From NCBI RefSeq assembly GCF_054482525.1, contig NZ_CM137006.1: a DNA stretch of 64,000 nucleotides. One strand, written 5' to 3'. Positions 1-3,000 of the stretch are shown piece after piece. Each line of letters opens with the position of its first letter. The first letter of the stretch is position 1. Position numbers: made by a program.

Positions 1-3000
1 GCGTTGTTGCGTTACCACGATCCGGCAAACTGGCCGTTAATCCGCCAGGCGCTGGAAGCGATGGGCAAAAAGCATCTGATTGGCAGCCGTCGCGATTGCT
101 TAGTGCCTGCGCCAACCATTGAAGAGATGCGTGAAGCTCGTCGCCAGAACCGCAATACCCGTCCGGCGTTGACGAAACATACGCCGATGGCGACCCAGCG
201 TCAGACGCCTGCTACGGCAAAAAAAGCGTCGTCTACGCAATCTCGTCCGGTGAATGCTGGTGCGAAGAAACGGCCTAAAGCGGCGGTTGGACGTTAAAAA
301 ATATCCCCGGCAACTGACACGCTACCGGGGATTTTTTTATCATTCTGCGTACATACGCAAGCAGCGCAGGCAATCAAAATAGTCCTGAGCATCAAGACGC
401 GTATTGGCTCTGTTAGCTTCGGATTTGGCAGCATAGATTTGTGGGCGTAGTGCTTTCATATCCTGCTCAAGCCGGGCGATTTTGGCATTTAATGTTTGCA
501 CATTGCTCGCCAGCTGATTGACCTTTTGCTCATTGACGCAGCCACTGAGCAAGCAGGTTGCCAGAACAACAGCTCCCACGGTGAAAATCGTTTTCATATA
601 GTGTTCCCTTTTATTTATTGTTCCGGCTAATTGTTATTTAATTCAGCTCATTGCTTTAATCTGGCGGCAGTTTTTGCCTCAATCTGCTTAAGTAGGCTGC
701 CGCTGTTCGGGCGGATAAAATCAGCGATTTCCCACTTGCCTTCGCGCCGCTGTAAAACCAGTTCTTGCTCTTCGTTGTTGCCATTGGTCAGCGTAAAACG
801 AACATGAATGCGGGCGGAATCGGCGGTTTTCTCCAGGACTCGAATTTCATCAACGCGTGAAAATAGCGACTCTTCGCCAAAACAGATCGGATTGTCGTAA
901 ATAAATTGCCGTTCTATTTGCATATCTTCATCGGGATTATTGGCCGTCTTGAAGGTGGTTTTATAGAAGGCATTAACCGCCTGGCGGTAAGAGTCGGAAA
1001 CCACCCACGTCCACGGCCAGCTATAATCAGCAATATGTTCAAAGAGTTCGGCAACAAAGGCTTCCGGCTGTTCTTTTTGCAACGAAGCTAAAGCGGCCAG
1101 CGTTTTTTCATTCTCGCTATTAACTGCTTGTAAGACGCTGCCATGATTGCTGACAATATCGTCAATGACCCAACGACCATTTTCCGCCACCATTTTCAGT
1201 GTCTGCGTGGTCTTTTCTTTATCATCTTTAAAGATACGAAAGCGCACAACGGCATCGGCATGATCGGCGTCAGTTTGGGTTATCGCAACGCTTTCTAGCA
1301 CCAGATCGCCAAAATCCTGACAATCACAAACCGGATCATAATCCAGCCAGCCAATATTGCCCGGCAGCGTAAGATTGTCGTTCAGGGTAAGCGCCTGTTG
1401 AATACGCGCAGAAGTTATCGCCCGCTCTCCAGTTTCACCAAAATAAGGGGCAGTGGCATCTGATTTATAGTTCTGATAAATATGCCGGACTGTTTGTTCT
1501 ACGGTCTGTGAGGGGGGCTGTGCGTGTACGGTAAAACTTGCCAGGGCTGCTAAAAACAGAAGTATTATTTTCATCTGTTTTTCACCTCTCCGTTGCGTTT
1601 ATCCCGGATATAGATGAGTTGTTCTTTTAAGAGCTTCCGGCTCTGCATGATGATGTCCTTATATTTGGCATTCCTGAACAAGGAAGAGTAACAACGGGCG
1701 GGACGCGAGGGGAATAAATGATTTCTGAAAAGTCCGGTAGCGGAACATTACCGCCACCGGGAGAATTTGCATGTTAGCCGCCGAACTGGTCAGGATCGGG
1801 ACCGAGACGCTTGCCCTGATCGAGTTTTGCAATTTCGCCGAGTTCGTCTTTGTCGAGACGGAAATCCCAGACATCAAAGTTTTCGGCAATACGTGAAGGT
1901 GTGACCGATTTCGGGATCACCACCAGGCCGCTATCCAGATGCCAGCGGATAACAATCTGCGCCGGGGTTTTGCCGTATTTATCTGCCAGATCGCGAATGA
2001 CTTTCTGATCGAAAACGCCTTTCCCTCCTTGCGCTAATGGGCTCCAGGATTCGGTCTGGATTTTGTGTGTCGCGTTCCAGGCGTGTAGCTGGCGTTGTTG
2101 CATCAGCGGATGAAGTTCGATCTGGTTTATCACAGGCGTCACGCCAGTTTCATCAATCAGGCGTTGCAGGTGATGGATCTGGAAGTTGCACACGCCGATG
2201 CTTTTGATTAATCCCTCTTTTTGCAATTCGATCATGCCTTTCCATGCTTCGACATAATGGTCGATAGCGGGAACGGGCCAGTGCATTAAGTAGAGGTCGA
2301 TATAATCAAGCTGGAGTTTTTTCAGGCTGTCGAGCAGGGCTTCGCGGGGGCGCTTGTGGTCGTCGTTCCACAGCTTAGTGGTGATGAACAGTTCTTCTCT
2401 GTTGACTGAGGCATTTTTCAGGGCTTTGCCGACACCTTCTTCGTTCTTGTAGGCCGCGGCGGTATCAATCGAGCGATAACCCACTTCTAACGCTTTTTGA
2501 ATGGCGGTGATTACTTCCTCATTACTTGCTTGCCAGACGCCCAGTCCCAGCTGGGGCATGACATTGCCATCCTGTAGCTTAATAACGGTTGGATTAGCCA
2601 TACGTTCCTCCTTTATATGAACTCACCGGAGCAGGCTCCGGTGAGGTGTTGTGAACTTAAGTCTGGACGAAATGCCCGAAAACGAAAGTTTGAGGCGTAA
2701 AAAGCTTAGCGGGCGGCTTCGTATATACGGCGGCTGACATCCAACGTAATGTCATGATTTTCGCCCAGTTGGGTCATGCCGTGCTCTTCCAGTTTTTTCA
2801 GCAAAGCCGGGATGGAGCTGCCGTCCAGACCGTAGTCGGAGAGGTGGGTCGGCACGCCTAATTGCTCAAAGAAATTGCGGGTTGCGGCAATCGCGGCGTC
2901 AATACGCTCATCGTCGGAACCTTCAGTGATGTTCCAGACGCGTTCAGCATATTGCAGCAGCTTAGCGCGCTTGGTATCGCGTTTTTCATTCCACAGTGCA

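What the first reader, a model, noticed from the sequence alone, without database searches (positions are those of the whole stretch)
2602..2705. Hairpin between yqhD and dkgA within the operon
On the coding (minus) strand a 10-bp-stem hairpin (ctcaccggag...ctccggtgag) is followed immediately by the dkgA ribosome-binding site (aaaggaggaacgtATG). It may act as a partial terminator or RNA-stability element setting the yqhD:dkgA expression ratio.
Basis: seen in the sequence. Interest (0 to 1): 0.2.

Follow-up and report, generated by a model that had tools for sequence, protein, structure and literature searches.

The report
Conserved RNA hairpin between yqhD and dkgA
A strong RNA hairpin between the E. 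coli aldehyde-reductase genes yqhD and dkgA is real and is kept by compensatory mutations across about 40 enterobacterial species, but it looks like an ordinary read-through stability or processing hairpin, not a true terminator.

Summary
On the minus strand, window 2645..2622 is a perfect 10-bp, 4-nt-loop hairpin (-18.8 kcal/mol, z -5.0). It lies in the 104-nt yqhD-dkgA spacer of E. coli, 7 nt before the dkgA ribosome-binding site.

It is far beyond chance. It is single copy and present in 5,412 of 5,426 E. coli genomes. About 40 Enterobacteriaceae species keep it at the same place, with compensatory changes in 7 of 8 consensus pairs and a G-U wobble bias for the sense strand. It is therefore a selected RNA structure.

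It is not a canonical terminator:
- The 3' tail is UUCAUAU, and the tail is not U-rich or conserved in relatives.
- A published Term-seq table lists the dkgA terminator 3' end but none in the spacer.
- dkgA is co-induced with yqhD by YqhC.

Best reading: a read-through intercistronic stem-loop acting as a nuclease barrier or insulator. Function is inferred, not shown.

Rfam ES173 sRNA matches 2703..2640, directly upstream of the hairpin. A 34-nt block (2688..2655) is as conserved as the SD. It resembles a sigma-S-type extended -10 element, so the hairpin may also head a dkgA-specific leader.

Low interest; a new member of a known kind.

The parts
2622..2645 (-). The hairpin: 5' arm 2645..2636, loop 2635..2632, 3' arm 2631..2622
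   Evidence: Sequence. Fold -18.8 kcal/mol, z -5.0. Covariation in 30 and 40 species.
2615..2621 (-). Tail/spacer UUCAUAU between hairpin and SD. Poorly conserved and not a U-tract.
   Evidence: Mean top-base frequency 0.44.
2607..2612 (-). dkgA Shine-Dalgarno core AGGAGG (ATG at 2601)
   Evidence: Conserved at 0.88 top-base frequency.
2602..2705 (-). Whole yqhD-dkgA intercistronic spacer (104 nt), equal to NC_000913.3 3,156,519-3,156,622
2655..2688 (-). Sequence-conserved 34-nt block CTTTCGTTTTCGGGCATTTCGTCCAGACTTAAGT
   Evidence: Mean top-base frequency 0.87 and 1.52 bits against 0.44-0.66 top-base frequency in the flanks. nhmmer profile hit 2688..2656, single copy.
2657..2667 (-). TC-CAGACT-TAA, resembling an extended sigma-S/sigma-70 -10 element (putative, hexamer 2665..2660)
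   Evidence: Hexamer variants across species keep A at position 2, T at position 6 and the preceding C. No -35, and not called by the promoter scan.
2640..2703 (-). Match to Rfam RF02753 ES173 sRNA (full length, 64 nt). It ends inside the hairpin's 5' arm.
   Evidence: 99 bits against gathering score 90, E 1e-20
2647..2652 (-). Unpaired ACAACA just 5' of the hairpin. Contains the ACA reported as a MazF cleavage site 47 nt upstream of the dkgA start.
   Evidence: PMC5001579 Table 1. Unpaired in the MFE.
2706..3869 (-). yqhD coding sequence (387 aa, stop TAA 2708..2706)
1774..2601 (-). dkgA coding sequence (275 aa)
1728..1760 (-). dkgA intrinsic terminator (10-bp stem, then ACUUUU), the operon's real 3' end
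   Evidence: Fold -20.5 kcal/mol. The Term-seq 3' end at 3,157,494 corresponds to window 1730.

Best explanation
The hairpin is a selected RNA stem-loop in the sense transcript of the yqhD-dkgA intercistronic spacer. RNA polymerase mostly reads through it, so dkgA stays co-transcribed with yqhD from the YqhC-activated yqhD promoter.

Its most likely job is post-transcriptional. As a stable, GC-rich, nuclease-resistant structure it separates the fates of the two halves of the mRNA:
- It blocks 3'-to-5' exonucleases, which protects yqhD and its 3' UTR. The ES173 fragment that accumulates from exactly this stretch fits that role.
- It caps and insulates the 5' side of the dkgA leader once the single-stranded, A/U- and ACA-containing stretch just upstream is cut.

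In this way it would help set the yqhD:dkgA ratio.

Shown: the structure, its conservation by compensatory change, the sense-strand bias, the missing U-tract, and read-through. Inferred: the nuclease-barrier/insulator function.
For: - Perfect 10-bp stem, -18.8 kcal/mol, z -5.0. Roughly 24-fold more such hairpins in the window than in shuffles.
- RNAalifold on 30 species predicts only this helix in the whole spacer.
- 95% of cells are paired. Six of 8 pairs and 27 cells carry double changes. No shuffle of 500 reaches the observed paired fraction, and slid controls give 28-55%.
- With 40 species, 7 of 8 pairs have compensatory changes.
- Non-Watson-Crick cells are 15 G-U/U-G against 4 A-C/C-A, as expected for the sense RNA.
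- A hairpin of -13 to -20 kcal/mol sits at the same spacer position in about 35 species, and it persists when repeats are inserted on either side.
- Tails have a median of about 3 T in 8, and only one reaches 5.
- No 3' end is listed in the spacer in the held Term-seq table, while the dkgA terminator end is listed.
- yqhC mutants raise both yqhD and dkgA by log2 2.15-6.16, and gSELEX finds a single YqhC site, upstream of yqhD.
- Rfam ES173, an RNA species reported from this spacer, abuts the hairpin.
- MazF-dependent processing is reported at the ACA 3 nt before the stem.
Against: - No half-life, Northern or end-mapping data for this junction could be retrieved, so the stabilising role is inference.
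- If the hairpin were a 3' exonuclease barrier, Term-seq should see a 3' end at its base. None is listed, though yqhD is probably poorly expressed without aldehyde stress.
- The ES173 model ends in the middle of the 5' arm, not 3' of the stem, which is odd for a hairpin-protected end.
- The conserved block upstream suggests an alternative or additional role for the hairpin, as part of a dkgA-specific leader.
Confidence: 0.45

Rival explanations
1. Leaky intrinsic terminator/attenuator. A fraction of polymerases stop after the stem, which lowers dkgA relative to yqhD.
For: The stem is as strong as that of the experimentally seen dkgA terminator (-18.8 against -20.5 kcal/mol). That terminator has only four U, so weak U-tracts can work here. 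In E. coli the tail begins UU. A few relatives have UUUCAU or UUUUU after the stem (L008, L046, L080).
Against: The tail UUCAUAU fails the simple terminator scan. U-richness is not conserved even in close relatives such as Salmonella and Citrobacter, while the stem is. No Term-seq 3' end is listed in the spacer although every dkgA transcript must cross it. dkgA is co-induced with yqhD.
Confidence: 0.2
2. The hairpin is the 5'-proximal stem-loop of a dkgA-specific mRNA. The conserved block would hold a weak sigma-S/sigma-70 internal promoter (TC-CAGACT-TAA), with a start near window 2653-2652 and the hairpin 7 nt downstream. This is compatible with the best explanation for read-through transcripts.
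For: - The block is as conserved as the SD.
- Hexamer variants CAGACT, CACACT, CACAAT, CAGGCT, CAAACT, CAGAAT, TAGACT and TAAACT all keep A at position 2, T at position 6, C at -13 and T at -6.
- CA at the predicted start is fairly conserved.
- The block matches 9 of 11 positions of the sigma-S consensus TCTATACTTAA. That consensus is recalled from memory.
- In an O157:H7 array, yqhE (dkgA) rises at the growth transition in the table passage that was read; yqhD was not seen in that passage and was not searched for.
- DkgA is listed beside OsmY and TalA, both classed as sigma-S-dependent from memory, in a Salmonella proteome.
- The block-to-hairpin distance is constant in most species, and ERIC insertions usually lie 3' of the hairpin.
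Against: - There is no -35, and the hexamer starts with C.
- Promoter scans call nothing here or at the equivalent place in four loci.
- No TSS could be retrieved from any dataset.
- ES173 coverage begins at the yqhD stop, not after the block.
- In L084 and L085 repeats separate the block from the hairpin.
- The same invariant positions also fit an RNase E-type RN|WUU site. That motif is recalled from memory.
- A 7-nt 5' overhang is long for a protective 5' stem-loop.
Confidence: 0.25
3. The block plus hairpin is a functional 3'UTR-derived small RNA (ES173), cut out of the yqhD mRNA. The block would be its seed and the hairpin its leaky terminator, as with SroC or CpxQ.
For: The Rfam ES173 match is above the gathering score. 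Its 5' end lies 2 nt after the yqhD stop at GC|UUUUU. The block is conserved at the sequence level without a covarying structure, as a seed would be. A terminal hairpin follows.
Against: There is no U-tail for Hfq. The ES173 model stops inside the 5' arm. No paper held mentions ES173, targets or chaperone binding. Target prediction was not possible with the sequence available.
Confidence: 0.1
4. DNA-level palindrome: an operator for a dimeric regulator or a recombination site.
For: It is a perfect palindrome. A conserved palindrome in the yqhC-yqhD spacer does look like a protein site.
Against: The arm sequences change while pairing is kept (CACCGG, CAGCGG, CACCAG, CGTCGG and others), whereas an operator would conserve sequence. 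G-U outnumbers A-C 15 to 4. gSELEX found no YqhC peak here.
Confidence: 0.03

Closest known systems
Intercistronic stabiliser stem-loops of polycistronic mRNAs (for example the malE-malF REP hairpins and the Rhodobacter puf intercistronic hairpins; compare the operon-reshaping decay described in PMC5927463)
   Same: A stable GC-rich stem-loop without a U-tract, lying between two co-transcribed genes, read through by polymerase and conserved as a structure.
   Different: It is single copy, not a REP/BIME repeat. No differential-decay data exist for yqhD-dkgA, and the operon is absent from the supplementary files of PMC5927463 that are held.
Rho-independent (intrinsic) terminators, such as the dkgA terminator 870 nt downstream
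   Same: A 10-bp GC-rich stem with a short loop and comparable stability.
   Different: The tail is UUCAUAU instead of a U run. The tail is not conserved and no mapped 3' end is listed.
Rfam RF02753 ES173 sRNA
   Same: Same locus: the model matches 2703..2640 at 99 bits.
   Different: The model covers the spacer upstream and only the first 6 nt of the hairpin. The model's own internal helix shows no covariation beyond shuffles in 30 species.
5'-terminal stem-loops that protect mRNAs from RNase E (ompA-type leaders)
   Same: A strong hairpin near the start of the dkgA leader, 7 nt upstream of the SD region. After MazF cleavage it would lie 3 nt from the 5' end.
   Different: No 5' end has been mapped. 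The predicted promoter-derived 5' overhang of 7 nt is longer than is typical for protection (from memory).

Membership tests
Intrinsic (Rho-independent) terminator | GC-rich stem-loop | tested here: met
   10 bp, 7 G-C pairs, -18.8 kcal/mol
Intrinsic (Rho-independent) terminator | U-tract directly 3' of the stem | tested here: not met
   The tail is UUCAUAU and is not called by the scan. In relatives the median is about 3 T in 8, and only one species reaches 5. The tail columns are the least conserved in the spacer.
Intrinsic (Rho-independent) terminator | RNA 3' ends mapped at the site | tested here: inconclusive
   The held Term-seq table has no entry at 3,1565xx-3,1566xx but lists the dkgA terminator at 3,157,494. 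The file may be incomplete, and yqhD expression in those conditions is unknown.
Rfam RF02753 ES173 sRNA | Covariance-model score at or above the gathering threshold | tested here: met
   99 bits against 90, full-length match at 2703..2640. This applies to the upstream spacer; the hairpin itself is outside the model except for 6 nt.
Rfam RF02753 ES173 sRNA | The family's consensus helix is supported by covariation | tested here: inconclusive
   81% of cells pair against 79.5% in shuffles. Three pairs carry double changes, and 281 of 500 shuffles do as well. The helix is mostly invariant.
REP/BIME or ERIC repeated palindromes | Many dispersed copies per genome | tested here: not met
   One copy in the 64-kb window. 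The median is one place per E. coli genome. ERIC-like elements are inserted next to it in some genera and are distinct from it.
Intercistronic mRNA stabiliser/processing hairpin | Stable stem-loop between co-transcribed genes, kept by compensatory change | tested here: met
   Co-induction of both genes is shown.
Intercistronic mRNA stabiliser/processing hairpin | Different stability or abundance of the segments on either side, dependent on the stem | not testable with these tools
   Needs rifampicin chase or Northern blots of stem mutants.
Sigma-70-family promoter (for the upstream block) | -10 hexamer with A at position 2 and T at position 6 | tested here: met
   CAGACT and all of its species variants
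Sigma-70-family promoter (for the upstream block) | -35 element at 16-18 bp, or a mapped transcription start | tested here: not met
   The best -35 candidate is CTTTCG (2 of 6). Scans are negative. No TSS could be retrieved.
3'UTR-derived Hfq-type sRNA (CpxQ/SroC type) | Terminator hairpin with a U-tail, and chaperone binding | tested here: not met
   No U-tail. Chaperone binding is not testable here, and nothing was found in the held literature.

The most novel reading that the evidence does not exclude
The spacer is a conserved two-part regulatory module, not a passive linker. In one version, a 34-nt block is a sigma-S-type internal promoter that gives dkgA stationary-phase expression independent of YqhC, with the hairpin as its leader structure. 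In the other, the block is the seed of a processed 3'UTR sRNA (ES173) whose leaky terminator hairpin also meters dkgA.
Probability: 0.3. Interest if true: 0.4.

Novelty: new member of a known kind. Interest (0 to 1): 0.22.

Why it matters
yqhD and dkgA are workhorse aldehyde reductases in metabolic engineering (furfural tolerance, 1,3-propanediol, isobutanol, aldehyde biosensors). Three things would be useful to people who re-engineer or delete parts of this operon:
- The junction carries a selected RNA structure.
- The adjacent element is strongly conserved and may drive dkgA on its own.
- Deleting yqhD cleanly at its stop codon leaves that element in place.

Beyond that, it is one more example of an intercistronic hairpin and does not bear on an open question.

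Tried and rejected
**End-mapping data**
- No supplement text was held for Conway 2014.
- The supplements had no relevant entry for Dar and Sorek 2018, PLoS Genet, Cho 2014, Yan 2018, Kim 2012 or Ettwiller 2016.
- Some of these files were cut when stored, so absence is weak evidence.
- Raghavan 2011 (source of ES173, from memory), Lee 2010 and Thomason 2015 are not held.
- Searches for ES173 and for yqhD with sRNA and Hfq found nothing relevant.

**Structure hypotheses**
- The ES173 internal helix has no covariation signal.
- A closing helix between CCUC after the yqhD stop and the dkgA SD appears in the MFE of the Escherichia/Salmonella/Citrobacter group only. It is not in the consensus, so it is rejected as the conserved function.

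**Repeat-element identity**
- REP/ERIC identity is rejected because the element is single copy.

**Homology outside Enterobacteriaceae**
- By eye, the 'C-TAnnnT-TTA plus hairpin' arrangement recurs upstream of Serratia and Yersinia dkgA and downstream of Serratia yqhD.
- nhmmer profiles give no significant hit there, so I do not rely on it.

**YqhC half-site idea**
- The block shares GCATTTC[G]TCCAG with one arm of the conserved palindrome upstream of yqhD.
- The match needs a gap, part of it is not conserved, and gSELEX shows a single YqhC peak elsewhere. I treat it as probably chance.

**Gene context without yqhD**
- All DkgA homologues fetched (Cronobacter, an Erwinia-labelled isolate, Jejubacter) still have yqhC-yqhD upstream. 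The test of whether the module follows dkgA or yqhD could therefore not be done cleanly.

**Other**
- No small ORF is conserved in the spacer on either strand (inspection).

Full report
**What is there**

The window is E. coli. A 201-nt query around the site is 100% identical to K-12 and matches 5,412 of 5,426 complete E. coli genomes, 5,355 of them at 99% identity or more, with one place per genome.

On the minus strand:
- yqhD runs 3869..2706 and dkgA runs 2601..1774.
- In MG1655 the 104-nt spacer is 3,156,519-3,156,622, and RefSeq annotates nothing in it.
- The hairpin is CTCACCGGAG-CCTG-CTCCGGTGAG at 2645..2622. TTCATAT follows, then AAAGGAGGAACGT-ATG.

It folds at -18.8 kcal/mol, with z = -5.0 and 0 of 200 shuffles as stable. 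The 64-kb window holds six distinct perfect hairpins of at least 10 bp, against 0.25 expected from dinucleotide shuffles. This one is single copy.

**Conservation**

A scan of one genome per species with YqhD returned 80 loci. yqhD-dkgA adjacency holds throughout Enterobacteriaceae, usually with a 99-109-nt spacer.

- RNAalifold on 30 non-identical spacers predicts only this helix as spacer structure.
- On that alignment 95% of cells pair. Six of 8 pairs and 27 cells carry changes on both sides. No shuffle of 500 reaches the observed paired fraction or covariation score, and sliding the partner by 1-3 columns drops pairing to 28-55%.
- Adding Klebsiella, Raoultella, Cronobacter and the species with long spacers (40 sequences) gives compensatory changes in 7 of 8 pairs.
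- Non-Watson-Crick cells are 15 G-U/U-G against 4 A-C/C-A. That is the asymmetry expected if the sense RNA is what is selected. These counts are not phylogenetically independent.
- The stem is -13 to -20 kcal/mol at the same spacer position in about 35 species.

An operator-type DNA palindrome would conserve sequence, not pairing, so that reading is rejected.

**Is it a terminator?**

Evidence against:
- The tail has four T in eight but only UU next to the stem, and the simple scan does not call it.
- Across species the tail is the least conserved part of the spacer (top-base frequency 0.44). The median is about 3 T in 8, and only one species reaches 5.
- The held Term-seq table of Adams et al. 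2021 lists a primary 3' end for dkgA at 3,157,494 and nothing at 3,1565xx-3,1566xx. That end corresponds to window 1730, inside the U run of the hairpin at 1760..1733. Every dkgA transcript must pass the spacer hairpin.
- yqhC gain-of-function mutants raise both yqhD and dkgA by log2 2.15-6.16. gSELEX gives one YqhC site, upstream of yqhD. Read-through is therefore substantial.

Caveats:
- The real dkgA terminator has only four U and also escapes the scan, so weak termination in E. coli cannot be excluded.
- The Term-seq file may be incomplete, and yqhD is probably weakly expressed without aldehydes.

1. Rfam RF02753 (ES173 sRNA) matches 2703..2640 full length at 99 bits (gathering score 90). 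The match runs from 2 nt after the yqhD stop into the hairpin's 5' arm. Its internal helix is mostly invariant and shows no covariation beyond shuffles.
2. A 34-nt block, 2688..2655, is as conserved as the SD and the coding ends (top-base frequency 0.87, 1.52 bits). The rest of the spacer is at 0.44-0.66 top-base frequency. It is single copy.

The 3' part of the block, TC-CAGACT-TAA, resembles an extended -10 element of the sigma-S type (consensus recalled from memory).
- For: across species the hexamer varies (CAGACT, CACACT, CACAAT, CAGGCT, CAAACT, CAGAAT, TAGACT, TAAACT) but always keeps A at position 2, T at position 6, the preceding C and the following T.
- Against: there is no -35, scans are negative, no TSS data could be retrieved, and the same invariant positions would also fit an RNase E-type site.

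Circumstantial support for separate dkgA control:
- yqhE (dkgA) rises at the growth transition in an O157:H7 array, in the table passage that was read; yqhD was not seen in that passage and was not searched for.
- DkgA appears beside OsmY and TalA in a Salmonella proteome.

A MazF study lists dkgA as cut at the ACA 47 nt before the start, which is 3 nt before the stem. That fits a single-stranded stretch followed by a protective hairpin.

**Linkage**

ERIC-like insertions usually lie between the hairpin and the SD (Citrobacter, Pluralibacter, an Enterobacter). Once they lie inside the block (L027). In L084 and L085 repeats lie between the block and the hairpin. The hairpin survives all of these, which suggests a function that needs no exact distance to either neighbour.

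**Mechanism**

I commit to a read-through intercistronic stem-loop that acts on RNA fate (confidence 0.45). It would be a barrier to 3' exonucleases for the yqhD part, consistent with accumulation of the ES173 fragment. It would also cap and insulate the dkgA leader after cleavage upstream.

- Shown: structure, selection on pairing in the sense strand, lack of a conserved U-tract, and read-through.
- Inferred: the nuclease-barrier role.

Rivals:
- Leaky terminator (0.2).
- 5' stem-loop of a promoter-derived dkgA mRNA (0.25, compatible with the best reading).
- Terminator of a functional ES173 sRNA (0.1).
- DNA operator (0.03).

**Novelty**

The element is ordinary in kind. The spacer is already partly catalogued as ES173, but no held paper from the ES173 and yqhD searches appeared to describe the hairpin or the conserved block. 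Interest is low.

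Noticed in passing
window 2655-2688 (minus strand): A 34-nt block, CTTTCGTTTTCGGGCATTTCGTCCAGACTTAAGT, is conserved at the sequence level as strongly as the SD across 30 species. 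It contains TC-CAGACT-TAA, which resembles a sigma-S-type extended -10. Its function is unknown: promoter, RNase E site or sRNA seed.
   Followed up: partly
window 2640-2703 (minus strand): A full-length match to Rfam RF02753 ES173 sRNA (99 bits, gathering score 90). RefSeq annotates nothing here, and the family's helix shows no covariation in 30 species.
   Followed up: partly
window 3984-4007: A perfect 10-bp palindrome, ATTTCTCCAGAGTGCTGGAGAAAT, in the yqhC-yqhD spacer. It is conserved as TTTCTCCAG-N-CTGGAGAAA across genera, lies inside the published YqhC EMSA probe, and is upstream of TTGAGA-17-CACAAT. It is probably the YqhC operator.
   Followed up: partly
window 1728-1760 (minus strand): The dkgA intrinsic terminator (10-bp stem, ACUUUU). 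The published Term-seq 3' end at 3,157,494 maps to window 1730. The simple terminator scan misses it.
   Followed up: yes
window 2692-2695 and 2607-2612 (minus strand): In E. coli and the Salmonella/Citrobacter group, the MFE pairs CCUC, 11-14 nt after the yqhD stop, with the dkgA SD. This could couple dkgA translation to yqhD termination. It is not conserved in other genera.
   Followed up: partly
L011, L016, L018, L057, L027, L032, L040 (yqhD-dkgA spacer); L084 and L085: ERIC-like and other repeat insertions of about 60-130 nt in the spacer of Citrobacter, Pluralibacter and others. They lie 3' of the hairpin, inside the block (L027), or between the block and the hairpin (L084, L085).
   Followed up: partly
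L003:3665-3769 (E. coli strain E69): The hairpin loop is CAGG instead of CCUG, so the whole hairpin is the exact reverse complement of the window's. This looks like a small inversion of the palindrome.
   Followed up: no
L052, L058, L066 (Serratia, Yersinia nurmii): An extra gene sits between yqhD and dkgA. Judging from its C-terminal sequence it may be a zinc-type alcohol dehydrogenase, but it was not tested. S. plymuthica (L054) keeps only remnants of its leader. Each junction carries its own hairpin.
   Followed up: partly
window 8412-8440, 12219-12244, 22294-22328, 39854-39884: Four other perfect inverted repeats of 10-15 bp in the window.
   Followed up: no
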